Positions 11,086-60,378 of a stretch of 64,000 nt of DNA are shown here, one piece after another; the stretch's first letter is position 1, and the number at the start of each line of letters is the position of its first letter. This DNA is from Gemmatimonadota bacterium (GTDB lineage Bacteria; Gemmatimonadota; Gemmatimonadetes; Palauibacterales; Palauibacteraceae). Made by a program: the position numbers and the translations under genes. The stretch covers positions 731 through 64,730 of the forward strand of contig JBATJK010000099.1 in the NCBI GenBank assembly GCA_049668445.1, read 5' to 3'. Below the pieces are notes generated by a model. The model did not search any database. It was not told where the DNA came from and worked only from the letters and a program-made list of their open reading frames with translations.

Positions 11086-11156
11086 TCCCGGGAGCAAAGG
11101 CGTCGTCCGGATTCGAACCGGAGTAGGGGGCTTTGCAGGCCCCTGCCTAGCCACTC
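11086..11156 (-). tRNA. tRNA-Cys (anticodon GCA), discriminator U73, CCA not encoded
   Basis: Reverse complement folds as GGCGTCG-TG-GCC-GAGTGGCTA-GGC-A-GGGGC-CTGCAAA-GCCCC-CTAC-TCCGG-TTCGAAT-CCGGA-CGACGCC-T. Acceptor stem is 7 bp, T arm 5 bp with TTCGAAT loop, anticodon loop CT-GCA-AA. Confidence 0.75.
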
Positions 11157-11324
11157 GGCCACGACGCCACGCCGGAAGTCCTTCTGGTTCCGGGGCGCGG
11201 AAACTAGCCGCTTCCGCGACCCGTGGCCAGAGTCCGAGTTCGCTTGTGCGGCCCCGTGGCGGACGCCTATACTCCGGTCCACGCTCGCCGCTCCGCGGCG
11301 CGATTCACCGTACCGGAGATCGTC

Positions 11325-49538: not shown

Positions 49539-50071
49539 CGGCCCGGTGCCTCAGCCGGCAGGAACTCGGCCGGGATCTCGTTCCCGGCCCGCTCCTGGTC
49601 AAAGATCCAGCTCGTGATCCACCAGCGACTTCCGTCGTTGTACAGCTGAATGCTGTTGATCCCGCGGCCGAAGACCTCGCCGTCCGGTTCCCCGCTCGAC
49701 GCGTAGGTGCTCCAAACGTGGGCCACGTTGCCGAACCGTTGAACCGTCCGGTGGACCTCCCACTCGAAGAACGCCGGCGCGTCGGCCGCGCCGAATCGGT
49801 CGTGGTACTCCGCCAGGGTCATCGTCTGGATTACCGGATCCCCGTCCGCTCCCAACCCAGTGATCGCCACCAATGCGTCGGGGTGGTGGATCCACTCGTC
49901 CCGCTCGCGGTCCGGCGCCGTTCCCGCCGGTCGGGACACCACCTCGTAGTAGGCATCCAGTATGCCGTCGAGCGTCTCGACGTCTTCCATGCGGCCACCA
50001 CCCACCTGTGCCTGGATCGAGCCCGGCGCCACGAGGGAAGTGACGATGAGCAGAGCGAGTACTCGTTTCAC
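49535..50071 (-). CDS. Secreted NTF2-like (SnoaL/DUF4440-like) protein, hypothetical
   Basis: Signal peptide MKRVLALLIVTSLVAPGSIQAQ. It shares …FGNVAHVWSTYASSG…RWWITSWIFDQE… with the 50838..51362 product. Confidence 0.5.
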   Translation of the reverse strand: MKRVLALLIVTSLVAPGSIQAQVGGGRMEDVETLDGILDAYYEVVSRPAGTAPDRERDEWIHHPDALVAITGLGADGDPVIQTMTLAEYHDRFGAADAPAFFEWEVHRTVQRFGNVAHVWSTYASSGEPDGEVFGRGINSIQLYNDGSRWWITSWIFDQERAGNEIPAEFLPAEAPGR

Positions 50072-50838
50072 GACATCTCCTCGAGGTTGTGGGCCGCCGA
50101 CTCAACGCCGCGCCCCGGTTGTTGGCAATGGCTCTCCCGGCCCACGATGCCGACGATCTCCTCCGGCGTCCGGGCAAGGAAATCTGGAGCTTCGGGCCAG
50201 CCGTCGACGGACTCACCTCCGTACAGAACGGCGATGCTCCACACGCTCAGCTCCAGACCACGAGCGACCACCTCCTTCCGCGCCTGCGCAACGCACATGG
50301 CATCGGTAGGGTGATCACCCACGTAGAACGCCGCGCCGGGCCCCATGGATGTCATGCGTTCGAGGCAATCCAACAACCCGTCCGGGGCCGGTTTCTGCCT
50401 CCCCGGCGCGACCTGCTCGTAGCCGATCACGTGATCGAATCGGTCTCCCAGGCCCAGCGGGTCCAGCGTCGCCTCGATGATCTGGCGGGAATTCTGCGAC
50501 ACGATCCCGTGCGGCAGGTGTGCGAGCGCCTGCAGAGTCTCCGGCACGCCAGCAAACGGCTGGACGGGCGTTTCGTCCGTCAGTTGGCACCGGGTCCACA
50601 TGCGACCCGCGGACTCGAGCATGTCTTCCCGGAGTCCGAACTCCCGCTGATAGAAGTCCCTCCAGTTCGTGCACCGGGCCACGGCGGCATCGTAGTTCTC
50701 GACCGAATGGAGAGTCTCGAAATCGTCCCAGGACCGCCCGGTGAGACCCTCGATGATGGATCGGTTGACGCTCAGGTTCCGATGGCGGGAGTCTACCAGC
50801 GTTCCGTCATAGTCCCAGACAATGGCGCAGGCCCGCAT
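50068..50838 (-). CDS. HAD-superfamily hydrolase (phosphoglycolate phosphatase-like)
   Basis: Internal start MRACAIVWDYDGTLVDS (motif I DxDGT), and …YVGDHPTDAMCVAQA (motif IV). Confidence 0.75.
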   Translation of the reverse strand: MRACAIVWDYDGTLVDSRHRNLSVNRSIIEGLTGRSWDDFETLHSVENYDAAVARCTNWRDFYQREFGLREDMLESAGRMWTRCQLTDETPVQPFAGVPETLQALAHLPHGIVSQNSRQIIEATLDPLGLGDRFDHVIGYEQVAPGRQKPAPDGLLDCLERMTSMGPGAAFYVGDHPTDAMCVAQARKEVVARGLELSVWSIAVLYGGESVDGWPEAPDFLARTPEEIVGIVGRESHCQQPGRGVESAAHNLEEMS

Positions 50839-51362
50839 CAGTCGCCGAAGCTCGGCACCGGGAGGTCGTCGCGCGGAAGCTCGTTGACCACGGACACGAC
50901 CTTCCACCGGCCATCGACGCGTATCAGCGACCACAGATCCACGCCCGGTCGCGCCGGCCGTGCGGTACCGGGGATGCTGGACTCGTACACCACACTCACG
51001 TGGGCGACGTCTCCGAACTCGGTCGTCTCGGCCGAGGTAACCGTTTCCTGAAACCCGTTCACACTGGCGGCCGCCAGTTGATTCTCGAAACGGAGCCAGT
51101 CCAGCAGGAAGCCGTCGACGCTCATGACCTTGAGATCCGGTGGATACCGAAGCACCACGATCGCCTCCGGGACGAACACGTCGCGTACGACCTCCCAGTC
51201 AGGCGTGTTCCCGTCCGTCCAGGAAACCAGGTCGTACACGTCCCGAACCACCTGCTCTACGGAACGAAGGTCCTCTGCGCTCTCGTCCGTCTGGGCCAGC
51301 GCCGGGGCCGTCAGAAGCATGGAAAGAGCACAGGCCAACCCTGTCACCCTGATTCGGTACAC
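50838..51362 (-). CDS. Secreted NTF2-like protein, paralog of 49535..50071. The start is approximate.
   Basis: Leader …GLACALSMLLTAPALAQ. Shares …FGDVAHVSVVYESS…RWKVVSVVNE…. The track ORF extends to 51452, but that would overlap the upstream gene by 61 nt. Confidence 0.45.
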   Translation of the reverse strand: MYRIRVTGLACALSMLLTAPALAQTDESAEDLRSVEQVVRDVYDLVSWTDGNTPDWEVVRDVFVPEAIVVLRYPPDLKVMSVDGFLLDWLRFENQLAAASVNGFQETVTSAETTEFGDVAHVSVVYESSIPGTARPARPGVDLWSLIRVDGRWKVVSVVNELPRDDLPVPSFGD

Positions 51363-51390
51363 GGCTCTTCTCCTTTCGCGTACACGTCTG

Positions 51391-52194
51391 TCAGTCGTTC
51401 TGCGGGGCTTCGTCAGCCGCTCCAGGCGCTGGCGCTCCCGGCACGGCCGCATCGATAGCCGGACGGGTGGAGGCGATCGCGGCCTCGACCTGCCTCGCCA
51501 GTCTGTCGATCAGCGCCCGGGCTGTATCCTGCCGACTCCGCACTTGCGAGGAATAGATGGAGCGCGCCATGAAGAAGGAGCCCGCGATGGCCGCTAGCGG
51601 GAATGCCACGAGGCCAGCACCTAGACCGAGGGTCGCCGAGAGAGCTCCGCCAAGACCGAAGCCGACGCCACCGCCGACTCCACCCATGATGCCGCCGAAC
51701 CAACCCGCGGCGAGCCCGGAGTAGCTCTGCTCGACCCGGATCAGGGTCTGACCGTTCTGAGACGAGACCAGCACCTGCTGCTCGGTGAGGTTGGATCCTT
51801 CCTGCGAACTCCACGTCAGCGACCGGCCGACAGCGCTCGCGGTGCCGCGTCCGGGAGTGGCGGCCACGATGGTGGGCACGAGCTCCTCGAGACGCTCGAC
51901 GGGCATCTCTCCCTCGACCACGCGTTCGATCGCGACGGCCGTCGGCGCGCCGGCAAGCCGGCTTCCCAGGGTAGCAGGCAATTGGGCGTTCAGCTCGCTC
52001 GCCGCCTGGCGCAGCATTCCGGGATCGATGCCGGCTTCGGCGGCGATCTCCTCCAGGTCGGCCATGGTCAACCCGGCCGGATCCGGCGCGGTGGGCTCGG
52101 CACGCTGCATCTCGGTAGCCCGCCGCAGGATGAGGGCGATTTCCTCCTCCGAGTAGCGACGGGGTTCGGGCAATAGATCGTTCATGATCCGCAC
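51391..52194 (-). CDS. Hypothetical protein with glycine-zipper membrane hairpin
   Basis: 267 aa. Helical N-terminal domain, then GWFGGIMGGVGGGVGFGLGGALSATLGLGAGLVAFPLAAIAGSFF (GxxxG repeats), then Ala/Pro-rich tail. Confidence 0.45.
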   Translation of the reverse strand: MRIMNDLLPEPRRYSEEEIALILRRATEMQRAEPTAPDPAGLTMADLEEIAAEAGIDPGMLRQAASELNAQLPATLGSRLAGAPTAVAIERVVEGEMPVERLEELVPTIVAATPGRGTASAVGRSLTWSSQEGSNLTEQQVLVSSQNGQTLIRVEQSYSGLAAGWFGGIMGGVGGGVGFGLGGALSATLGLGAGLVAFPLAAIAGSFFMARSIYSSQVRSRQDTARALIDRLARQVEAAIASTRPAIDAAVPGAPAPGAADEAPQND

Positions 52195-52230
52195 AATCTA
52201 GCGACCGGCGAATCCGCTGCGACCCCGGCT

Positions 52231-54048
52231 TCAGTTGGACTCATCGAATTCCCAGGAAGCCACGAAGTCCCGGGTCGGGGCCTCGCCCGTAAGCCGGGCT
52301 CGGACCATCTCGATGGGCATCGTCCCACCCTGGAGGATCGCGTCGTGGAATTCTCGCTCCGTCATCCGGCCCGTTTCGACCAACTCAGAATGAAGAGCTA
52401 GTATCTGCATGCCACCGATCATGTACGCGGCCTGGTACAGCGGAGAGTACGACCCGTTGAACGATCTCCTCACCTCGGCCGTCGCGCTGGCCCGTTCGTG
52501 ACCCACCCCGTCAACCAGGAAGTCGATCGCCTGGTCCGGCGTCATCTCCCCGAGGTGGAATTTGAGGGAGAAGATGATCCGGGCAGCACGGTGCTTCCTC
52601 CAGAACAGCATTCCCATGCGATCTTCCGCCGTGGCGGGGAATCCCAGGTCCCACAGCCGCATCTCCCAGTACAGGGCCCAGCCCTCTCCCCAGAAGGGCG
52701 TGCCGAACACCCTGCGGTGCGGGTTGTACCGCCGCGTCATGAAGCCTTGCAGGTGGTGCCCCGGAATGAGCTCGTGGTGAACGGTGGCGCGGGAGAAGTG
52801 GACGTTGTTCGCCCGCATGCTCATCAACTTGTCCTCGTGCGCCATACCGTCGGTCGGAAACGAGACCTGGATCACTTCTCCGCCGAGGAAGAACGGGGCG
52901 ATCTTCTGCATCTCCGGTGACATCATCTCGAGGCGCCACACCTCCTCGGCGAGCGGCGGGATGGTCAGGAGGTCGCGCGCCTCGAGAAAGGCCACGGCCT
53001 CCCACGCGAGATCGCGCACCAGGTCCGGCTGCTCCCCGGGGTCCACGTGAAGCGTCTTGACGTGCTCCAGGGCGGCGTGCCAATCGTCCCCAAAGCCCAT
53101 GTCGCGAGACGCACGCACCATCTCGGCCTCGCACCAGGCGAATTCCCTCTCGCCGATCGCGATCAGCTCCTCGGGCGTGTAGGCGATCATCTCGTGCTCG
53201 AGATCCGACCGCATGCCGTCCGCTCCTATCGGATCACCCACGATCGGCTCGTCGCCTCCGGCCTCGACGCCCACGAGACGCTCCCGCACGAAGTCGACGT
53301 AGCCGGCCAACAGCGAGTCGACCGCCGAGTAGGGGGACTCCACCCACCATGTGAACAGTGGATCGTAGCCGGCGTAGTGGCCGTACCAGTGCTCGAGATC
53401 GCGGCGGAGTGAGTTGATGGCCCGCGCCGCACGGAGCGCGACGATCGGCGAGGGAACAGTCGCCTCCCCCGCCGTGGCATCGAGCAAAGTTTCGAAGCCG
53501 GTCTGCAGGCCTTCGACCTCGTCCGCGAGCGCCTGGAGAGCGACGGCGGCCTCTCGCGGATCGACGGGTGCCAGATCTCGACGAGCCTCCTGCAAGGACG
53601 CGATCGTGGGGATGAATGGCACGAGGCTCTGCAGCTCCTTCGCGCGTTGGCCTTCGCGCTCCAGCAATTCGAGTTCGTAGCGCAGTTCCGACCGGAGGAG
53701 GACGTGGTCGATGCGCCCCTCCAGACCGAGCCCTCCCATTTCGATCTCGTCGAGCTGCTGCAACCACCCTTCGTAGAACGTGCGCAGTCGCTGTCGCCGA
53801 TCCGGCGAGTATGCCACGTCCCAGCGGCGCAGAAGGACCTCGCGGTCCGCCGAGTAGCGGCCGACGACTCCCGCCAGGTCGCTCTCTTCCATCGCGACGA
53901 TTGCACGAAGGTCCGGGGCTGCCTCCTCCTGCGCGTCCGCCGGCGAAGCGGTGATCAGCAGAGCGGAGAGAAGAAGAACGGCGCTCGGAGTCCAAGGGAT
54001 GCTGTCAGGTTTCACGTGCGGTTTCCTCCAGCGAGTCGCTTGAAGCAA
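52231..54048 (-). CDS. DUF885 family protein (putative secreted metallopeptidase-like)
   Basis: 605 aa. Signal peptide, conserved region …ATVHHELIPGHHLQGFMTRRY…FWGEGWALYWEMRLWDLGF typical of DUF885. Confidence 0.7.
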   Translation of the reverse strand: MLQATRWRKPHVKPDSIPWTPSAVLLLSALLITASPADAQEEAAPDLRAIVAMEESDLAGVVGRYSADREVLLRRWDVAYSPDRRQRLRTFYEGWLQQLDEIEMGGLGLEGRIDHVLLRSELRYELELLEREGQRAKELQSLVPFIPTIASLQEARRDLAPVDPREAAVALQALADEVEGLQTGFETLLDATAGEATVPSPIVALRAARAINSLRRDLEHWYGHYAGYDPLFTWWVESPYSAVDSLLAGYVDFVRERLVGVEAGGDEPIVGDPIGADGMRSDLEHEMIAYTPEELIAIGEREFAWCEAEMVRASRDMGFGDDWHAALEHVKTLHVDPGEQPDLVRDLAWEAVAFLEARDLLTIPPLAEEVWRLEMMSPEMQKIAPFFLGGEVIQVSFPTDGMAHEDKLMSMRANNVHFSRATVHHELIPGHHLQGFMTRRYNPHRRVFGTPFWGEGWALYWEMRLWDLGFPATAEDRMGMLFWRKHRAARIIFSLKFHLGEMTPDQAIDFLVDGVGHERASATAEVRRSFNGSYSPLYQAAYMIGGMQILALHSELVETGRMTEREFHDAILQGGTMPIEMVRARLTGEAPTRDFVASWEFDESN

Positions 54049-54151
54049 TTCGGGCTCGGTGTCCGGCGCCTGCGTTGGCCGAGCGCGAACCGGGCCCCGA
54101 GATCCAGAGCTGCAGCAGCCAGGATGACGCCGGTCCAGACGAGACCGCGCC

Positions 54152-54604
54152 TCACTTCACGCCCTCCAGCCCGGCCGTCGCCATGGCTCGCCGGGCCACC
54201 TTCTCAAGGTCATCGGCCAAGCCGTACTCGAGGACGTGTACGGCCGGGTTGCCGCGGATCATGGCCGACAGGCGACGCCCTGATTCTGGCCGGAACAGGC
54301 CGACCACCGGCTTTCCCATGACGGCCGCGCGCGCGACTTCGTATCCCACGCCGAGTGACGGGGTGGTTACCTCCGCGATCACGACGTCCGCCTCCCGCAG
54401 CCACTCGAGATCACGGGCGTAGATCCCTGCATCGCCAAGGCCAGCCTCTCCACCATCCGAGAGGTCAGGACTGCCAATGTGCTCGGTGAGGACCGAACCA
54501 TGCTGGGCAAGGGCCGAGATCAGAGCCTCGTACCTGGGGGCATCGTCCCGGCCGCCACTGATCGAGGCGGAAAAGTAGATCAGGGGCCGGGCCCTGCCGG
54601 TCAC
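54152..54604 (-). CDS. 2'-deoxynucleoside 5'-phosphate N-hydrolase (DNPH1/Rcl family; nucleoside 2-deoxyribosyltransferase fold)
   Basis: GTG start preceded by GAGAGGAG Shine-Dalgarno. The 150-aa product LIYFSASISGGRDDAPRYEALISALAQHGSVLTEHIG…DLEWLREADVVIAEVTTPSLGVGYEVARAAV…GLFRPESGRRLSAMIRG is nearly collinear with human DNPH1 as I recall it (YFCGSIRGGRED…TVLTEHV…DLEWLQQADVVVAEVTQPSLGVGYELGRA…LFRPQSGRVLSAMIRG). The track ORF 54152..55138 is N-terminally over-extended with Arg/Gly-rich junk. Confidence 0.75.
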   Translation of the reverse strand: MTGRARPLIYFSASISGGRDDAPRYEALISALAQHGSVLTEHIGSPDLSDGGEAGLGDAGIYARDLEWLREADVVIAEVTTPSLGVGYEVARAAVMGKPVVGLFRPESGRRLSAMIRGNPAVHVLEYGLADDLEKVARRAMATAGLEGVK

Positions 54605-54864
54605 TCCCGCTCCTCTCGTTCGAGAACCGGGGGATCGCCCGACTCGTCCTCTTCTTGCTCCTGCCTCACGTGCGCTTCCTGTACGTGCTGCATGCCCGGG
54701 TTGAAGATCGAATCGAGCTCCTGCGCGTGGTACATGGCGCCACCGCGAACTCCGCGAGTCCGGCGATAGAAGATCCGGCCCTTCGCTTCGAGCCCGAGGA
54801 GCAGGCGGTCCAGCACCACCAGGACGACCGCCGCGACAGCGGCCCAGGCCAACCACTTCAACAC
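54601..54864 (-). CDS. Small membrane-anchored protein (1 TM + acidic tail), hypothetical
   Basis: 87 aa. MLKWLAWAAVAAVVLVVLDRLLLGL… then …QEQEEDESGDPPVLEREERE. Its stop overlaps the GTG start of the DNPH1-like gene. Confidence 0.4.
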   Translation of the reverse strand: MLKWLAWAAVAAVVLVVLDRLLLGLEAKGRIFYRRTRGVRGGAMYHAQELDSIFNPGMQHVQEAHVRQEQEEDESGDPPVLEREERE

Positions 54865-54912
54865 CGGCCTCCCGGTCAGAAAGTGGACATAGTGTCGGCA
54901 CGACGAGTGAAG

Positions 54913-55179
54913 CTACGACGTGACCAGTCGCAGAGCGATCCACAACAGGGGCAGGGAGGACACCCCGATCGCGATCCAGTCCCAGACGGCCGGGCGGCCG
55001 GTTCCCGAACGGCCGATGATCAGCAATCCGACCCCTACGAACAGGGCACTCAGAGCCACCGGAAGGAGGAGCAACGGGGCCGCCGCCCAGGCGCCCCAGC
55101 CGTCGTAGCGATCGACGACACTGCGCGCGTAGAGCCATGCCACCGCGGGCACCCAGCAGGCGAATCGGAAGTACGTCAT
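54913..55179 (-). CDS. Small integral membrane protein (2-3 TM), hypothetical
   Basis: Internal start MTYFRFACWVPAVAWLYARSVVDRYDGWGAWAAAPLLLLPVALSALFVGVGLLIIG…WDWIAIGVSSLPLLWIALRLV. It has an ATGA overlap with the upstream serine hydrolase gene stop. Confidence 0.4.
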   Translation of the reverse strand: MTYFRFACWVPAVAWLYARSVVDRYDGWGAWAAAPLLLLPVALSALFVGVGLLIIGRSGTGRPAVWDWIAIGVSSLPLLWIALRLVTS

Positions 55180-56339
55180 CGCAGGCCTTCGTCCCTGGAC
55201 TCCGCCCCCCAACCGACCTTGAACGTCGGAACCGCGTACCGGTCGAAGAAGCGCCACATGCGCCGAGTGTGTCCGCGCTCGCGCGCCCGCAGTGAGGATG
55301 TCGCTACGATCACCAGGTCGAGACGAGGCACGACCACGATGAACTGGCCGCCGTACCCCCAGGCGAAGTACGCCCGCTCGCCACCCCAGCGACGCATCCA
55401 CCACAGATACCCGTATCCGTGACCGTTCCAGGGCGAAGACCCGGTCGGTCGCCAGGACGCCGTGATCCAGTCCTCCGGCACCAGCTGCTGCCCCTCGAAA
55501 CGCCCCCCGTTGGCGTACAGCTGACCGAACTTCAGCATGTCGCGCGGTCGCAGGGACATGTTGTTACCACCGAGGTATCGGCCCTGCGGATCTCGATCCC
55601 ATTCACCGAGGCCGATCCCCATGGGCCGGAACAGTTCATCGAGCATGTATCGGCGGAGGCTCTTCCCCGAGCGCCGGGTCAGGATCACGGACAGGAGGTG
55701 CGTGTTTCCCGTGGAGTACTCGTGGCAGTCGCCGGGATCGCAGATCATGGGGCGTCGCAACTGGTCGTACGCCCAGTCCGGTGACGCGGCCCACGCACCG
55801 TAGTTCCCGAAGGATGCCGTCTCGATGCCGGTTCGCATGCTCAGGACGTGCCTGAGCTCGATATCTTCCTTGCGCGGGTCGAGCGAGCCCCTCTGAGCCA
55901 GGATCTCGTAGTAGTCCGGGAGAAGCTCGGAGAGCGGCTGGTCCACGCCGTCCAGGAGGCCGTCCCTCAGTGCGATCCCCACCATCGGCGACAGCAGCGT
56001 CTTCGAGACCGACTTGACGTTGATCGTCTGAGACGGGCGGAGGCCCCGATAGTAGTTCTCCACCAGCACGCTGTCCCGCCGGGCCACGATCAGGCTGGTA
56101 AGGGCGCTCATGCCCTCCGCTTCAGCGAGCATGCGCGCCATGCGAGCGGCGTGAAACAGGGGAGGCGGCGGCGGACCGACCAGGGACCCGGTCAGCGAGT
56201 CCATGGCAGCCGTCTCGACGCCTTCCGGCTGTCCGGAAGCCGCCCCCTGTGCAAGCAGCGGCCGGGCCACGGCCGGCAGAAACGCCGCCAGGACCAACAT
56301 CGTGACGGAGAGAACGCGGCTCAGTTCGTACACTCGCAT
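55176..56339 (-). CDS. Serine hydrolase, beta-lactamase/transpeptidase fold (class C beta-lactamase-related / esterase family), secreted
   Basis: Signal peptide MRVYELSRVLSVTMLVLAAFLPAVARPLLAQG, active-site SxxK (NVKSVSKTLL), 387 aa. Confidence 0.8.
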   Translation of the reverse strand: MRVYELSRVLSVTMLVLAAFLPAVARPLLAQGAASGQPEGVETAAMDSLTGSLVGPPPPPLFHAARMARMLAEAEGMSALTSLIVARRDSVLVENYYRGLRPSQTINVKSVSKTLLSPMVGIALRDGLLDGVDQPLSELLPDYYEILAQRGSLDPRKEDIELRHVLSMRTGIETASFGNYGAWAASPDWAYDQLRRPMICDPGDCHEYSTGNTHLLSVILTRRSGKSLRRYMLDELFRPMGIGLGEWDRDPQGRYLGGNNMSLRPRDMLKFGQLYANGGRFEGQQLVPEDWITASWRPTGSSPWNGHGYGYLWWMRRWGGERAYFAWGYGGQFIVVVPRLDLVIVATSSLRARERGHTRRMWRFFDRYAVPTFKVGWGAESRDEGLR

Positions 56340-56391
56340 GACCTGAACCTAAACGAAGAACCCGGCCGAGTTCCGCCAGGCGCGCCGGATG

Positions 56392-57390
56392 TCACTCTGG
56401 TCTGCCGGCAAGATCATCCTGGGGATAGACTTCGTCCTCCGGCTCGACGATCGTCAGAGCGGGGGTCGGACGGCGGTGCACTCGGAGTTCGAACACATCG
56501 GGGCGTGCGTAGTTGCCGGCCACGTCGATCTGCCAGCGCGGCCCCACCAGTTGGTCCGGCCTGACGTCGGCGTAGAGGATCGTCTCTTCCTGGTCCGCGG
56601 GACCGGCTACGACCTTTCCGTCCGGATCGACGATGACGGTCCCCCCCGGATTCAGCCATCCTTCCATGGCTCCGAGGTACTTCTCCTTGAAGGCATAGCG
56701 GTCGGGTATGTCGTCCAGGTGAAACGCCTGGCAGCTGCCGAGCACGAATACCCGGCCCTCCTTCGCCACGTGCCGCATGGTGGACAGCCACGGCTCGCCC
56801 CGGTCCCAGGTGGGAGCGGCGTGGAGCTGGGCGCCCCACGCGCTGAGAGCGTATCGAGCCAGCGGCATGTAGTTCTCCCAGCAGATGAGTCCTCCCAGGC
56901 GTGCGAACGGAAGCTCGTACACCGCGAGGTCGCTGCCATCGCCCCGCCCCCACACCAGCTTCTCGGCGGTCGTCGGCACCAGCTTGCGGTGCTGACCCAG
57001 GACCGAACCGTCCGATCCGATATACAGGAGCGTGTTAAACAGCGTGGAATCGCTTGACTCCGAGTTACGCTCATTTACCCCTACAGCCACCGTGATATCG
57101 CACTCCGCGGCGACGGCTCCGAGCACCTCGGTCGCAGGACCTGGAATCGAAACCGAGTTCGCGTGGAGTTCGGTGTACAGTTCGCGGAGGGGGTGCGTGT
57201 GTCCGCCCGGCATGAACCAGACCCAGATCGGATAGCCTGGCAGGAAGGCCTCCGGAAACACGACGAGCCGAGCCCCTCCGTCGGCTGCCTCCCGAATCAG
57301 GCCACATGCTTTCTCGAGAGACGCTTCGAGATCGAGGAATACCGAGCTCGCCTGCACCGCGGCTATTCGAAAAGAGGTTGCCTGGTCCAC
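56392..57390 (-). CDS. Carbon-nitrogen hydrolase (nitrilase/aliphatic amidase family)
   Basis: MDQATSFRIAAVQASSVFLDLEASLEKACGLIREAADGGARLVVFPEAFLPGYP (catalytic Glu), …RKLVPT… (Lys), GGLICWENYMPLAR (Cys). Confidence 0.85.
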   Translation of the reverse strand: MDQATSFRIAAVQASSVFLDLEASLEKACGLIREAADGGARLVVFPEAFLPGYPIWVWFMPGGHTHPLRELYTELHANSVSIPGPATEVLGAVAAECDITVAVGVNERNSESSDSTLFNTLLYIGSDGSVLGQHRKLVPTTAEKLVWGRGDGSDLAVYELPFARLGGLICWENYMPLARYALSAWGAQLHAAPTWDRGEPWLSTMRHVAKEGRVFVLGSCQAFHLDDIPDRYAFKEKYLGAMEGWLNPGGTVIVDPDGKVVAGPADQEETILYADVRPDQLVGPRWQIDVAGNYARPDVFELRVHRRPTPALTIVEPEDEVYPQDDLAGRPE

Positions 57391-57409
57391 TCTATCTCCT
57401 CAGTCCGCC

Positions 57410-57784
57410 CTAGAAGAACTGGTCGATCAGGATCGGATTGCCGTCCGGATCGAGGAATGCGATGTGCGCCGGGCCGCTCGTACTCTCGTCGGCCTCTTCC
57501 GTGAGCTCGATGCCCTCGCTCTTCAGCGATCTTTGGATCTCTCTCACGTCGGTGAACTCGCCGAGCTGCTCCATGTCCGGCCCCGCGAGGCCGGGGTTGA
57601 AGGTAAGTATGTTCCTGTCGAACATTCCCTGGAACAGGCCGATTACCGTGCCCTGGTTCACCAGGATCAGGTAATTGTGTTCCTCGGCCCCGCCTGTCAC
57701 CTCGAAGCCGAGTTTTTCGTAGAAGGCCCTGGAAGCCGCGAGATCCTTCACGGTCAGACTGACGGAAAACGCTCCCAGATCCAT
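57410..57784 (-). CDS. VOC family protein (glyoxalase/bleomycin-resistance fold)
   Basis: 124 aa. [24 protein letters not shown]…[17 protein letters not shown]. Confidence 0.75.
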
Positions 57785-57787
57785 GAT

Positions 57788-58279
57788 CTATGCTCCTTGG
57801 CCGGACACGGCCTTGCTGCGTTCGATCGATTGCAGGACCAGGTATTTCTCTCCGAAGCGGTCGAGATTGTCGATCTCCTGGTCATACTGGTCGAAGTGCC
57901 GCTCTTCGTCGGCGACCAGTTCCTCGAAGACCTTCCGAGTCCCAGCATCGTTGTTGTGCGAGGCGATGTTGGCCCACTCGTTGTACTCCGCGACGCTCTC
58001 CTCCTCCATCTTGCGGGCCTGTACCAACATCTCTCGCACGTCAGTGATCTTCTTCACCTCGTGCGACGGCCTCATCTCGACATCGCCGCCCAGGAAGAGG
58101 ATACGCTCCGCCGCTACTTCGACGTGCAACATTTCGTCGATCGATGTCTTCTTGAACAGACCCGCAAGGAGATCGTATCCCTGGTCGTCGCAATGGAAAT
58201 GGAAGTACATGTACTGGTGAATGGCCGAAAGCTCGTCCGCCACCACTCCGTTCAGCAGTTCGATGCTCTTCTCTTTCAT
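57788..58279 (-). CDS. bfr: Bacterioferritin
   Basis: Internal start MKEKSIELLNGVVADELSAIHQYMYFHFHCDDQGYDLLAGLFKKTSIDEMLHVEVAAERILFLGGDV… (ferritin-like di-iron helices). About 161 aa. Confidence 0.85.
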   Translation of the reverse strand: MKEKSIELLNGVVADELSAIHQYMYFHFHCDDQGYDLLAGLFKKTSIDEMLHVEVAAERILFLGGDVEMRPSHEVKKITDVREMLVQARKMEEESVAEYNEWANIASHNNDAGTRKVFEELVADEERHFDQYDQEIDNLDRFGEKYLVLQSIERSKAVSGQGA

Positions 58280-58380
58280 GGTTCTCTCGATGCAATGGGT
58301 GATTCCGCCTGCCGCGCATACCTCCGCCGCGCACGCGCCTGCGCCTTCTCGGCCTGCACCGCGCGGCTCAGCGTGGGGAG

Positions 58381-58440
58381 TATAACAGCTCCAAATTGAA
58401 TAGTGGATTGATGTTATGGCATACAATATTATCCATTTTC
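58381..58440 (-). promoter_or_regulatory. AT-rich promoter island upstream of bfr with Fur-box-like hexamer repeats
   Basis: tataacagctccaaattgaatagtggattgatgttatggcatacaatattatccattttcttaag is the most AT-rich 60 nt in the window. It contains TGATTGATGTTAT and AATATTATCC, which resemble GATAAT/ATTATC Fur half-sites. Confidence 0.3.
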
Positions 58441-59019
58441 TTAAGTATTCTCAGTCCGCCATGGCTCCAACGCGGACAGCACTTCGCTGGACTGCACGAC
58501 CACAGCGAACTCCCCGTGCAGGTTGGCCAGCGAGACCGCGTGAACGAGTTCTGCGGGGTGGGAGACTCCGTCGGGTCCAGCGCGATCGAACGTGGCCGTG
58601 GCGTCTGCGACAACGAAGGTCTCGAACCCCAGGTTCCCGGCCATACGGGCGGTCGTCGAGACACAGTGATTGGTGGTCAGGCCCACCATGACCAGGGACT
58701 CGACCCCCTCCGACCGCAGGTGGTCTTCCAGCCCGGTGCCGATGAAGGCACTGTTGACGCTCTTCTGAAACAGTGGCTCCCCTTCCCTGGGCTCCGCCTG
58801 CGGCTTGATTTCGACTCCGGGCTGTCCCGGTCCCAGCGCCGACCCCGGCTCGACCGAGACATGCTGGGCGTGGACCACGGGCCAGCCAGCCGCCCTCCAG
58901 GCCTCGAGGAGGCTGGCGATGACGCTCTCCGCCTCGGGGTTATTGCGAGCTCCCCAGCCTGGAGCGTCAAAGCCCTTCTGCACGTCGATTACCAGCAGAG
59001 CTGCGCCATGCGGAACCAT
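58441..59019 (-). CDS. Isochorismatase-family cysteine hydrolase
   Basis: Internal start MVPHGAALLVIDVQKGFDAPGW…LVMVGLTTNHCVSTTARMA (catalytic Cys). Confidence 0.8.
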   Translation of the reverse strand: MVPHGAALLVIDVQKGFDAPGWGARNNPEAESVIASLLEAWRAAGWPVVHAQHVSVEPGSALGPGQPGVEIKPQAEPREGEPLFQKSVNSAFIGTGLEDHLRSEGVESLVMVGLTTNHCVSTTARMAGNLGFETFVVADATATFDRAGPDGVSHPAELVHAVSLANLHGEFAVVVQSSEVLSALEPWRTENT

Positions 59020-59021
59020 GT

Positions 59022-59573
59022 TCACTCTTCCTCGAGACTCGTCATCGGGTCCTCGCCGAACCGTCCATACAGCAGGCGGACGACACCGTTTTCCCATGCC
59101 GTGACGTCCCGGAGTTCCAGCTCTCCCGCCGGAAATGGTGCGGGAAAGAGGGGAACGCCTGCCCCGAGCCAGACCGGCATCACGAACACCTCGTACTCGT
59201 CGACCGCTCCGAGGCGCTCGAACTCGCGAATGGCCTGTCCGCCGCCGATCAGCCAGCAGTCTCCCTCGAGATCGCGGTCCGCGAGGTGCGCGGCCAGCTC
59301 CCGGGGCGTCCCGCTCCAGGGGAAGGCGCGCTCGGGCATGCCGTCGATCGGGGCGTGGCTGAGAACGTAGACATCGTGATCGGGATACGGCCACTCACCG
59401 AAGTCCAACACCTGCTCATACGTAATCCTGCCCATGACGGCGCAGGAGATCTCCCGGATAAACGACTCGTAGCCGTAGTCCGCGTCGAAGAACGGCTCCA
59501 GCCAGTCGACCGCTCCGTCCGGGGTCGCGATGTAGCCGTCGAGGCTCATCGCGATATAGACCCGAAAGCGCAC
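59022..59573 (-). CDS. Dihydrofolate reductase family protein (RibD C-terminal-like / YwjB)
   Basis: MRFRVYIAMSLDGYIATPDGAVDWL…VMGRITYE…CWLIGGGQAIREF. Confidence 0.8.
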   Translation of the reverse strand: MRFRVYIAMSLDGYIATPDGAVDWLEPFFDADYGYESFIREISCAVMGRITYEQVLDFGEWPYPDHDVYVLSHAPIDGMPERAFPWSGTPRELAAHLADRDLEGDCWLIGGGQAIREFERLGAVDEYEVFVMPVWLGAGVPLFPAPFPAGELELRDVTAWENGVVRLLYGRFGEDPMTSLEEE

Positions 59574-59576
59574 GGG

Positions 59577-59867
59577 TCAGTGGAACTGGGGGTGACCGCC
59601 CTCGGGCGCGATCACCTCACCGTAGTTGGCTTCGTACTTCTGCATGTTGTCGACGAGGGCCGAGAGGATGCGCTTCATGTGCCCCGGACTCACCATCACA
59701 CGGGAGACCAGCTGGGTTCCGTTGGGAGCACTGAGAAGGAAGTCCAGGATGAACTCCTCCCTGGTGTGCGTGACCAGCATGTTGTTGCTGTACCGGCCTC
59801 GCGCGACCTCGTCGTTCGCGTTGATCTGCACCTGTGGCGCAGCGGGGCGAGTCGGGTTGTCTGCCAT
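59577..59867 (-). CDS. DUF3467 family protein
   Basis: 96 aa. …INANDEVARGRYSNNMLVTHTREEFILDFLL…MVSPGHMKRILSALVDNMQKYE. Confidence 0.55.
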   Translation of the reverse strand: MADNPTRPAAPQVQINANDEVARGRYSNNMLVTHTREEFILDFLLSAPNGTQLVSRVMVSPGHMKRILSALVDNMQKYEANYGEVIAPEGGHPQFH

Positions 59868-59940
59868 CGGGAACCGGCTCCGTGGAATCTGATTGTGAGT
59901 CTGCGGCGAGAGCGGAACCTAACACGGGCTCCGCCAGGAG

Positions 59941-60378
59941 TCAGCCACTCCGCGGGCAGTCCCTGAGGTCCGCGCTGCCGCTTCCACCCCCCCGCCAGAC
60001 CAGGAAGGCCGCCATGGCCATGACCGCGAGCGGTACCACGGGTTCGTTTGGCTGAAGCGGAAACATGAAGGGGTCGTCCACCACCACGTGCACATATGCG
60101 GCGACGGACATGATGGCGACGATCACGAGCGCTACGATCCGCGTGAAAGCCCCTACCAGTAGCGCCAGGCCCGACGCGATCTCCACGATGGGCACGACCC
60201 ACTTCACCAGCCAGATCAGCGGGATCCCGGAAGCGACGAGCTGTCCGGAGAAGGCCTCTCCCAGCATGGGGACGGCCAACTTCATCACGCCCGTCATCAG
60301 GAACAGCGCGCCAAGGGCCATGCGTATGGCGCCGGCGAAGCTGTCATCGCTGGTCTGGCGCAGGCTTCGGACATCCAT
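59941..60378 (-). CDS. DoxX family membrane protein
   Basis: 145 aa, four TM: …IRMALGALFLMTGVMKLAVP…IPLIWLVKWVVPIVEIASGLALLVGAFTRIVALVI. Confidence 0.7.
   Translation of the reverse strand: MDVRSLRQTSDDSFAGAIRMALGALFLMTGVMKLAVPMLGEAFSGQLVASGIPLIWLVKWVVPIVEIASGLALLVGAFTRIVALVIVAIMSVAAYVHVVVDDPFMFPLQPNEPVVPLAVMAMAAFLVWRGGGSGSADLRDCPRSG

What the first reader, a model, noticed from the sequence alone, without database searches (positions are those of the whole stretch)
54152..56339. Operon ending in a near-canonical DNPH1 (2'-deoxynucleoside 5'-phosphate N-hydrolase) homolog, preceded by a beta-lactamase-fold hydrolase and two small membrane proteins
- **DNPH1-like gene.** The last gene, after trimming to a GTG with a strong GAGAGGAG SD, encodes 150 aa that are almost collinear with vertebrate DNPH1/Rcl: the SISGGRDD nucleotide-binding loop, VLTEHI, DLEWLREADVVIAEVTTPSLGVGYE and LSAMIRG. 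Such close DNPH1 orthologs are uncommon in bacteria.
- **Translational coupling.** An 87-aa single-TM protein's stop overlaps the DNPH1 GTG. An ATGA overlap links the upstream secreted SxxK serine hydrolase to an 88-aa polytopic mini-membrane protein.
- **Hypothesis.** DNPH1 cleaves the N-glycosidic bond of dNMPs, including 5-hydroxymethyl-dUMP. Together with membrane partners this could be a nucleotide-sanitising or nucleotide-depleting module, for example against hypermodified phage nucleotides, rather than simple salvage. The function of the pairing with a periplasmic beta-lactamase-fold enzyme is unexplained.
Basis: partly seen in the sequence, partly recalled or inferred. Interest (0 to 1): 0.6.

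Follow-up and report, generated by a model that had tools for sequence, protein, structure and literature searches.

The report
Ordinary bacterial DNPH1 gene, lineage-specific neighbours
The 150-residue protein is a genuine bacterial relative of the human nucleotide-cleaning enzyme DNPH1, but such relatives are widespread and its three neighbouring genes accompany it in only one marine bacterial lineage, so this is an ordinary housekeeping gene rather than a new four-part system.

Summary
All four genes exist as described on the minus strand: a beta-lactamase-fold hydrolase, an 88-aa membrane protein (tm88), an 87-aa single-TM protein (tm87) and a 150-aa DNPH1 homolog. The ATGA and GTGA overlaps and the Shine-Dalgarno site are also there.

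The DNPH1 assignment is solid. Human and rat DNPH1 match at E 3e-36 with 57% identity. The predicted fold (pLDDT 89.6) hits only DNPH1 structures, at TM 0.81-0.87. The catalytic triad, both phosphate serines and the LTEH motif are kept. Only the base-contacting Arg30 is replaced, by Ser.

The claim that such orthologs are rare in bacteria is wrong. About 3,900 protein clusters match, from haloarchaea, Chloroflexota, Acidobacteria, Bacteroidales and Firmicutes, and some are already annotated as DNPH1.

The four-gene block is kept in about 20 related loci, nearly all labelled Gemmatimonadota (Palauibacterales, the marine benthic group), while the flanking genes come and go. One relative lacks tm87 and another lacks tm88. 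Outside this lineage the DNPH1 gene stands alone in all 10 loci inspected. Of 80 loci carrying tm87-family genes, 78 have no DNPH1 nearby. No anti-phage defence model matched.

Verdict: a new member of a known enzyme family inside lineage-specific synteny. Interest is low.

The parts
54152..54604 (-). DNPH1-type 2'-deoxynucleoside 5'-phosphate N-hydrolase homolog, 150 aa, GTG start, cytosolic
   Evidence: - PF05014 match, E 5e-13.
- Human/rat DNPH1 in PDB, E 3e-36, 57% identity over 114 aa.
- AlphaFold model pLDDT 89.6. The top 50 PDB fold hits are all DNPH1, TM 0.81-0.87 for the best-ranked.
- Conserved residues: Y10, D65, E89, S83, S113, E41, H42, D58, I15, I61. Human R30 is replaced by S16.
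- No hydrophobic segment.
54610..54617 (-). Shine-Dalgarno-like GAGAGGAG, 5 nt upstream of the DNPH1 GTG, inside the 3' end of tm87
   Evidence: Read directly from the sequence.
54601..54864 (-). tm87: 87-aa protein with one N-terminal TM helix, a conserved cytosolic region and an acidic tail. Its stop overlaps the DNPH1 start (GTGA).
   Evidence: - 53 close homologs with 15 invariant residues.
- Wider family of 591 representatives at E <= 1e-3. Only 4 of 56 members match DUF6191.
- 62% of nucleotide differences fall at third codon positions.
- One hydrophobic segment, residues 1-28.
- Absent in L008.
54913..55179 (-). tm88: 88-aa polytopic small membrane protein. Its start overlaps the blac stop (ATGA).
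   Evidence: - About 45 homologs at >= 59% identity, plus distant relatives in other gene contexts.
- 55% of nucleotide differences fall at third codon positions.
- Hydrophobic segments at residues 28-60 and 65-87.
- Not detectable in L015.
55176..56339 (-). Class-C beta-lactamase-related serine hydrolase, 387 aa, with a probable signal peptide
   Evidence: - PF00144 match, E 5e-26.
- Closest solved structure is Leptospira Lsa45 (8dc1), E 1e-37. Next is 6-aminohexanoate-dimer hydrolase.
- SxxK at 110-113, Tyr208 (YST), WGYGG at 327.
- N-terminal hydrophobic stretch, residues 3-30. Export is inferred, not tested.
56360..56381 (-). Terminator-like hairpin with a T-rich tail, between the nitrilase stop and the blac start. 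It may mark the 5' boundary of the transcription unit.
   Evidence: Consensus scan found 3 sites against 1.7 expected by shuffling, so this is weak evidence.
56392..57390 (-). Upstream neighbour: nitrilase-family CN-hydrolase. A variable flank, not part of the block.
   Evidence: PF00795 match, E 5e-49. Present, absent or reduced to remnants among relatives.
52231..54048 (-). Downstream neighbour: DUF885 protein. A variable flank, not part of the block.
   Evidence: PF05960 match, E 4e-53. Absent in L004, L005, L009, L010, L012, L014, L018 and L026.

Best explanation
- **The enzyme.** The last gene encodes a cytosolic, probably dimeric DNPH1-type enzyme. By homology it hydrolyses the N-glycosidic bond of 2'-deoxynucleoside 5'-monophosphates through a covalent Glu89-deoxyribose-5-phosphate intermediate. 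Tyr10 and Asp65 complete the catalytic triad. Ser83 and Ser113' hold the phosphate. Glu41 and His42 serve the hydrolytic step and leaving-group stabilisation.
- **Its role.** It most likely does housekeeping work: sanitising or salvaging the dNMP pool by removing damaged or non-canonical dNMPs and yielding free base plus deoxyribose 5-phosphate.
- **The neighbours.** The three upstream genes are an exported beta-lactamase-fold serine hydrolase and two small membrane proteins. They are functionally unrelated neighbours that were fixed next to the enzyme in the Palauibacterales (marine benthic group) lineage of Gemmatimonadota.
- **Expression.** Within that lineage the genes are probably co-transcribed, and the two overlapping pairs are probably translationally coupled. 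This reflects compact genome organisation, not a shared pathway.
- **Shown versus inferred.** Shown: homology, fold, residue conservation and gene-order statistics. Inferred: enzymatic activity, substrate, export of the hydrolase and co-transcription.
For: **Enzyme identity**
- PDB phmmer gives DNPH1 at E 3e-36, against BlsM at 0.2 and a true NDT at 0.92.
- The fold search returns only DNPH1 in its top 50, from a model with pLDDT 89.6.
- Ten of eleven functionally defined human residues are conserved. Residue roles are taken from PMC10603095.

**Family is widespread**
- 3,884 clusters match across archaea and bacteria.
- Homologs are annotated as DNPH1 on Apilactobacillus plasmids and as nucleoside 2-deoxyribosyltransferase in Selenomonas and Segatella.

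**Synteny is limited to one lineage**
- The block is present in every related locus with DNPH1 at 74-89% identity and enough flank. Nearly all are labelled Gemmatimonadota.
- It is absent from all 10 distinct non-clade DNPH1 loci.

**Small genes are dispensable and independent**
- L008 lacks tm87 and L015 lacks tm88.
- 78 of 80 tm87-family loci have no DNPH1 within the DNA held, up to 4 kb each side. Many of these contigs are short.
- Their neighbours show no recurrent partner.
- Distant tm88 relatives sit in other contexts.

**No defence signature**
- PADLOC gave only a sub-threshold TIR-like hit, E 0.011.
- No phage homologs were found.
Against: - Within the clade the four-gene block stays contiguous while the flanking nitrilase, glyoxalase and DUF885 genes are repeatedly lost.
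- The 4-nt overlaps are kept in independent gene calls. Some selective advantage of co-expression cannot be excluded.
- The clade-typical Arg30-to-Ser change (59 of 60 clade members) could mean a shifted base preference tied to the lineage-specific context.
- No activity, expression or localisation data exist.
Confidence: 0.8

Rival explanations
1. The four genes form a functional module. The membrane proteins anchor or regulate DNPH1 at the envelope, the periplasmic hydrolase supplies or senses a substrate, and together they sanitise or deplete nucleotides, for example against phages with hypermodified DNA.
For: - The block is contiguous in all clade loci despite turnover of the flanks.
- The overlapping stop/start pairs are conserved.
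- Phage DNPH1-like enzymes that reshape dNMP pools are known, such as DmtZ (PMC12884076).
Against: - No co-occurrence outside one lineage.
- tm87 or tm88 can be lost while DNPH1 and blac stay.
- No PADLOC match.
- The neighbourhood consists of metabolic genes, not a defence island.
- DNPH1 has no membrane segment or extra domain.
Confidence: 0.07
2. The enzyme is not a general dNMP sanitiser. It is a specialised glycosidase with a different base specificity, because the base-contacting Arg30 is replaced by Ser. It might serve a lineage-specific salvage or secondary-metabolite route, as MilB and BlsM do for CMP or hydroxymethyl-CMP.
For: - Ser16 replaces Arg30 in 59 of 60 clade members, whereas Arg is the norm elsewhere.
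- R30A reduces hmdUMP turnover about 6-fold in the human enzyme (PMC10603095).
Against: - Tyr10 is kept. The ribose-specific MilB has Phe there.
- His42 is kept. MilB has Glu there.
- BlsM matches only at E 0.2.
- No biosynthetic cluster lies nearby.
Confidence: 0.12
3. The extended 328-aa ORF (54152-55138) is the real product, and the small ORFs are artefacts.
For: An uninterrupted ORF exists in this high-GC sequence.
Against: - Homologs are 146-153 aa long.
- L008 has an in-frame stop just upstream of its ATG.
- tm87 and tm88 are conserved in their own frames, with third-position-biased substitutions.
- tm87 belongs to a family of 591 representatives.
Confidence: 0.01

Closest known systems
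Human/rat DNPH1 (Rcl), 2'-deoxynucleoside 5'-phosphate N-hydrolase 1 (PDB 8qhq, 4p5e, 4fyh, 2klh)
   Same: - 57% identity over 114 residues, same length class and same fold (TM 0.81-0.87).
- Catalytic Tyr/Asp/Glu triad, both phosphate-binding serines, the LTEH(V/I) motif, Asp73 and Ile29/Ile76 equivalents.
   Different: - Arg30, which contacts base O4 through a water molecule, is Ser16 here.
- The metazoan N- and C-terminal extensions are absent.
- The host is a bacterium.
- Activity is untested.
Prokaryotic PF05014 proteins annotated 'nucleoside 2-deoxyribosyltransferase' or 'putative DNPH1' (haloarchaea, Chloroflexota, Acidobacteria, Bacteroidales, Apilactobacillus plasmids)
   Same: Same family at 43-64% identity, with the same conserved motifs.
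   Different: Those genes are stand-alone with unrelated neighbours. Most keep Arg at the position equivalent to human Arg30.
MilB / BlsM CMP N-glycosidases and phage DmtZ dAMP N-glycosidase
   Same: Same superfamily and the same chemistry: nucleotide N-glycosidic bond hydrolysis.
   Different: - Only marginal sequence similarity (BlsM E 0.2).
- MilB has Phe for Tyr and Glu for His, which sets its ribose and cytosine specificity.
- Those enzymes sit in antibiotic-biosynthesis or phage Z-genome gene clusters. Neither context is present here.
Lsa45 of Leptospira (8dc1) and other class-C beta-lactamase-related serine hydrolases (e.g. NylB), compared with the upstream 387-aa gene
   Same: PF00144 fold, SxxK and Tyr motifs, E 1e-37 to Lsa45.
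   Different: The second motif is YST rather than YSN, and WGYGG replaces the KTG box. The substrate is unknown. No known link to nucleotide metabolism.
Pfam DUF6191 (PF19690), compared with tm87
   Same: Small proteins with an acidic 'EEDxsGxPP'-type C-terminal region. 4 of 56 family members match, best E 1.4e-5.
   Different: The window protein itself matches only at E 1.6, below threshold. Most of the 591-member family is not captured by the Pfam model.

Membership tests
DNPH1 (2'-deoxynucleoside 5'-phosphate N-hydrolase 1) | NDT-superfamily fold (PF05014), closest to DNPH1 structures | tested here: met
   - PF05014 at 49.5 bits, above the cutoff of 28.8.
- Model pLDDT 89.6.
- Top 50 PDB fold hits are all DNPH1, TM 0.81-0.87 for the best-ranked.
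DNPH1 (2'-deoxynucleoside 5'-phosphate N-hydrolase 1) | Catalytic triad Tyr24 / Asp80 / Glu104 (human numbering) | tested here: met
   Tyr10, Asp65 and Glu89 align to them. Asp and Glu are invariant in 120 homologs.
DNPH1 (2'-deoxynucleoside 5'-phosphate N-hydrolase 1) | 5'-phosphate binding by Ser98 and, from the partner subunit's helical extension, Ser128' | tested here: met
   Ser83 (PSLGVGYE) and Ser113 (LSAMIRG) are invariant in 120 homologs.
DNPH1 (2'-deoxynucleoside 5'-phosphate N-hydrolase 1) | LTEHV motif with Glu55 (hydrolytic step) and His56 (base O2 contact and leaving-group stabilisation) | tested here: met
   LTEHI with Glu41 and His42. Residue roles from PMC10603095.
DNPH1 (2'-deoxynucleoside 5'-phosphate N-hydrolase 1) | Arg30 base-recognition residue, salt-bridged to Asp73 | tested here: not met
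   Ser16 replaces Arg30, while Asp58 (equivalent to Asp73) is kept. Ser is found in 59 of 60 clade members and Arg in most others. In the human enzyme R30A costs only about 6-fold in turnover, so this residue is auxiliary rather than catalytic.
DNPH1 (2'-deoxynucleoside 5'-phosphate N-hydrolase 1) | dNMP / hmdUMP N-glycosidase activity, homodimer | not testable with these tools
   Needs an enzyme assay and oligomer analysis.
Nucleoside 2-deoxyribosyltransferase proper (NDT/PDT, acting on nucleosides) | Closest sequence relationship to characterised NDTs, and absence of phosphate-binding serines | tested here: not met
   A true NDT (6evs) matches only at E 0.92, against 3e-36 for DNPH1. Both phosphate-binding serines are present.
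Known anti-phage defence systems (PADLOC-DB) | Match of any of the four proteins or their flanks to a defence-system model | tested here: not met
   The only hit is a sub-threshold TIR-like ThsB match, E 0.011, for the DNPH1 homolog. The other five proteins gave nothing. No homolog in 50,697 phage records.
Conserved functional operon / four-gene module | Co-directional genes with short gaps or overlaps | tested here: met
   ATGA and GTGA overlaps and a 48-bp gap. The same layout appears in independent gene calls.
Conserved functional operon / four-gene module | Gene association conserved across distant lineages, beyond vertical synteny | tested here: not met
   - The association is restricted to one lineage, whose loci are nearly all labelled Gemmatimonadota.
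- It is absent from 10 non-clade DNPH1 loci and from 78 of 80 tm87-family loci.
- tm87 or tm88 is missing in L008 and L015.
Class-C beta-lactamase-related serine hydrolases (PF00144), for the 387-aa gene | SxxK nucleophile motif, catalytic Tyr, family HMM above threshold | tested here: met
   PF00144 at 92 bits, above the cutoff of 27. S110-V-S-K113 and Tyr208 are present. The Asn of the YxN motif is Thr here, and the KTG box is WGYGG.

The most novel reading that the evidence does not exclude
In Palauibacterales, the translationally coupled tm87 protein (a single TM helix plus a highly conserved cytosolic tail ending in EEDESGDPP) might recruit or regulate the Arg30-to-Ser DNPH1 variant at the inner membrane. 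This would tie removal of an unusual dNMP to an envelope process that also involves the exported serine hydrolase. It would be a lineage-specific membrane-associated nucleotide-sanitising unit.
Probability: 0.05. Interest if true: 0.45.

Novelty: new member of a known kind. Interest (0 to 1): 0.15.

Why it matters
- **Practical value.** The result corrects an annotation. Proteins labelled 'nucleoside 2-deoxyribosyltransferase' in Gemmatimonadota and many other prokaryotes are DNPH1-type dNMP N-glycosidases with the full catalytic apparatus. A nucleotide-pool sanitiser studied as a human cancer target therefore has an ancient and broad prokaryotic distribution.
- **A possible experiment.** The clade-specific Arg30-to-Ser change offers a natural variant for probing base recognition.
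- **What it is not.** The gene cluster does not reveal a new system or answer an open question.

Tried and rejected
- **Defence-system reading.** A PADLOC scan of six proteins gave nothing above noise, and tblastn against phage genomes found no match. Rejected.
- **tm87 as a general DNPH1 partner.**
  - A profile search found 591 relatives.
  - Of 80 metagenome loci, only the 2 clade loci carry DNPH1.
  - Clustering the immediate neighbours showed no recurrent partner. Rejected.
- **tm88 as a general blac partner.** Distant relatives sit behind a peptidase-M24/unknown gene pair or behind a DUF2164 gene. Rejected.
- **Extended 328-aa ORF.** Rejected on homolog lengths, the stop codon in L008 and the conservation of the overlapped small genes.
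- **Non-coding elements.** An Rfam scan of 50000-60000 found none.
- **Promoters and terminators.** The scan found no sigma-70-like promoter and only a weak terminator-like hairpin upstream of blac, which is not significant.
- **NCBIfam.** No model names the DNPH1 homolog or the small proteins.
- **Special affinity to vertebrates or horizontal transfer.** Identity to human DNPH1 (57%) is about the same as to haloarchaeal and Chloroflexota homologs (50-64%), so there is no sign of it.
Full report
**What is in the sequence.** The window has about 65% G+C. At 54152-56339 it carries four co-directional minus-strand genes:
- blac, 55176-56339, 387 aa.
- tm88, 54913-55179, 88 aa.
- tm87, 54601-54864, 87 aa.
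- a 150-aa gene, 54152-54604, starting at GTG.

The blac stop and tm88 start overlap as ATGA. The tm87 stop and the GTG overlap as GTGA. GAGAGGAG sits 5 nt upstream of that GTG. A GGGAGG precedes the tm87 GTG. The neighbours on the same strand are a nitrilase-family gene upstream (52-bp gap) and a DUF885 gene downstream (about 100-bp gap).

**The 150-aa protein is a DNPH1-type enzyme.**
- Pfam places it in PF05014.
- Against all PDB sequences the best matches are human and rat DNPH1 at E 3e-36. BlsM scores 0.2 and a true nucleoside deoxyribosyltransferase scores 0.92.
- BLASTP identity to the human enzyme is 57% over 114 residues.
- An AlphaFold model built on 33 homologs has pLDDT 89.6 and pTM 0.87.
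- The top 50 Foldseek hits in the PDB are all DNPH1 chains, and the best-ranked have TM 0.81-0.87.

Residue roles come from the human hmdUMP complex (PMC10603095). The window protein keeps the following:

| Role in human DNPH1 | Human residue | Window residue |
|---|---|---|
| Catalytic triad | Tyr24, Asp80, Glu104 | Tyr10, Asp65, Glu89 |
| Phosphate binding | Ser98, Ser128' | Ser83, Ser113 |
| LTEH motif (hydrolytic step, base O2) | Glu55, His56 | Glu41, His42 |
| Salt bridge to Arg30 | Asp73 | Asp58 |
| Base-sandwiching | Ile29, Ile76 | Ile15, Ile61 |

The one departure is Arg30, which contacts base O4 through a water molecule. It is Ser16 here. Ser is found in 59 of 60 members of the close clade, while Arg dominates elsewhere. 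Tyr10 argues for a deoxyribose substrate, because the ribose-specific MilB has Phe at that position.

**The 328-aa extended ORF is not the product.** Homologs are 146-153 aa long. In L008 the gene begins at an ATG just after a stop codon. The extension runs out of frame over tm87 and tm88, which are themselves under purifying selection.

**Rarity claim.** The word-indexed search returned 3,884 protein clusters at E <= 1e-5. Outside the close clade, many prokaryotic proteins are 50-64% identical, which is as similar as the human enzyme. They include haloarchaea (Natrialba, Natronococcus, Halopiger; UniRef calls them 'Putative 2'-deoxynucleoside 5'-phosphate N-hydrolase 1'), Chloroflexota, Acidobacteria and Bacteroidales. 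Plasmid records of Apilactobacillus kunkeei already carry the annotation 'DNPH1', and Selenomonas and Segatella have homologs too. Close DNPH1 orthologs are therefore not uncommon in prokaryotes. They are usually labelled 'nucleoside 2-deoxyribosyltransferase'.

**Origin of the window.** The genome-collection relatives at 74-87% identity are nearly all MAGs labelled Gemmatimonadota, including 'Candidatus Benthicola marisminoris'. One is labelled Akkermansiaceae and two 'uncultured bacterium'. A tm87 homolog is labelled Candidatus Palauibacterales. This is the PAUC43f marine benthic group described in PMC10469786.

**Do the four genes travel together?** Within this lineage, yes.
- Every locus with enough flank has blac-tm88-tm87-DNPH1 in the same order, and independent gene calls show the same 4-nt overlaps.
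- The flanks vary. The nitrilase is intact, absent, or reduced to remnants of 30-70 aa. DUF885 is absent in eight loci. Glyoxalase and ferritin genes come and go. The block is therefore more stable than its surroundings.
- It is not indivisible. L008 has tm88 followed after 10 bp by DNPH1, with no tm87. L015 has no tm88.

Outside the lineage the association disappears. DNPH1 homologs stand alone beside unrelated genes, often flanked by genes on the opposite strand. This holds for three Bacteroidales MAGs, a contig where the gene follows a lysine-aminomutase-like radical-SAM gene, a Chloroflexota MAG and five further metagenomic contigs.

**The small proteins.** Both are real genes.
- Third codon positions carry 62% (tm87) and 55% (tm88) of the nucleotide differences from relatives. 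The figures for DNPH1 and blac are 61% and 65%.
- tm87 has a variable N-terminal TM helix and a strongly conserved cytosolic part, LDRLLLxLEARGWIFYRRTRGVRGGAMYHAQELDSIFNPGMQHVQEAHVKQEQEEDESGDPP, with 15 invariant residues in 27 sequences.
- A profile search of 1.8 billion representatives found 591 relatives at E <= 1e-3. Only 4 of 56 sampled members touch Pfam DUF6191, and the window protein itself matches at E 1.6.
- Of 80 metagenomic loci carrying family members, only the two from the same clade have a DNPH1 gene within the DNA held, up to 4 kb each side. Many of these contigs are short.
- The most distant word-search homolog is coupled to an ankyrin-repeat gene instead.
- Clustering the immediate neighbours reveals no recurrent partner.
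- Distant tm88 relatives also sit in other contexts.

**The hydrolase.** blac is a class-C beta-lactamase-related serine hydrolase (PF00144). It has S110-x-x-K113, Tyr208 and an N-terminal hydrophobic segment consistent with export. Its closest solved relative is Leptospira Lsa45, at E 1e-37. Nothing links this family to nucleotide metabolism.

**Defence hypothesis.**
- PADLOC gave only a sub-threshold TIR-like match, E 0.011, for the DNPH1 homolog and nothing for the other five proteins.
- No phage genome holds a homolog.
- The neighbourhood is a run of miscellaneous metabolic genes: RibD_C, isochorismatase, ferritin, glyoxalase, nitrilase, DUF885 and HAD.
- A phage DNPH1-like enzyme, DmtZ, does exist in Z-genome phages (PMC12884076). 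It is a distant superfamily member in a different gene context.

**Conclusion.** The gene is a bona fide prokaryotic DNPH1 homolog and most likely a cytosolic dNMP N-glycosidase for nucleotide-pool sanitation or salvage. Its three upstream neighbours reflect lineage-specific synteny, with probable co-transcription, in Palauibacterales. They do not form a conserved functional module. It is a new member of a known kind, and interest is low. The most novel reading still open is a lineage-specific functional tie between tm87 and the Arg30-to-Ser DNPH1 variant, which I put at about 5%.

Noticed in passing
window 54601-54864 (-); alignment A2; loci L023, L026-L105: tm87 belongs to a broad family of 85-100-aa proteins that Pfam largely does not capture. 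Members have an N-terminal TM helix and a conserved cytosolic 'LDRLLLWxExRGWIYYRR ... F.P...HV.E ... EEDxsGDPP' region. The family has 591 representatives at E <= 1e-3. Only 4 of 56 members match DUF6191. Gene neighbours vary, so the function is unknown.
   Followed up: partly
L110 105-4447; L116/L117 672-4414: In a Chloroflexota MAG and in two further metagenome contigs, the stand-alone DNPH1 homolog sits divergently next to a MalT/BTAD/TPR-type regulator of about 1,070 aa. This could be a regulatory pairing in that lineage, or simply synteny between related genomes.
   Followed up: no
window 59022-59573 (-); L028, L030, L036-L038: In relatives whose tm87 is 51-56% identical, a RibD_C (dihydrofolate-reductase-like) gene lies directly upstream of tm87. 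In the window it lies about 4 kb upstream. The run of isochorismatase, ferritin, glyoxalase, nitrilase, blac and tm88 genes looks like an insertion between the two, or a deletion in the other genomes.
   Followed up: partly
L003 3998-4207; L011 6072-6161 and 9604-9666: Short remnants of the nitrilase (70 aa and 30 aa) and of DUF885 (21 aa) flank the intact four-gene block in some relatives. The neighbouring genes have decayed repeatedly.
   Followed up: partly
window 51391-52194 (-): A 267-aa protein with no Pfam match and a glycine-rich hydrophobic C-terminal segment (GWFGGIMGGVGGGVGFGLGG...). It is conserved at 64-87% identity in almost every related locus, just downstream of DNPH1 or DUF885.
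   Followed up: no
window 54152-54604 (-), residue 16: The Ser-for-Arg30 substitution at a base-recognition position is nearly fixed in the Palauibacterales-type DNPH1 clade (59 of 60 members) and rare elsewhere (9 of 60).
   Followed up: partly
window 11098-11168 (-): This is the only tRNA gene in the window, tRNA-Cys (GCA). It lies inside long spurious ORFs of this high-GC sequence.
   Followed up: no
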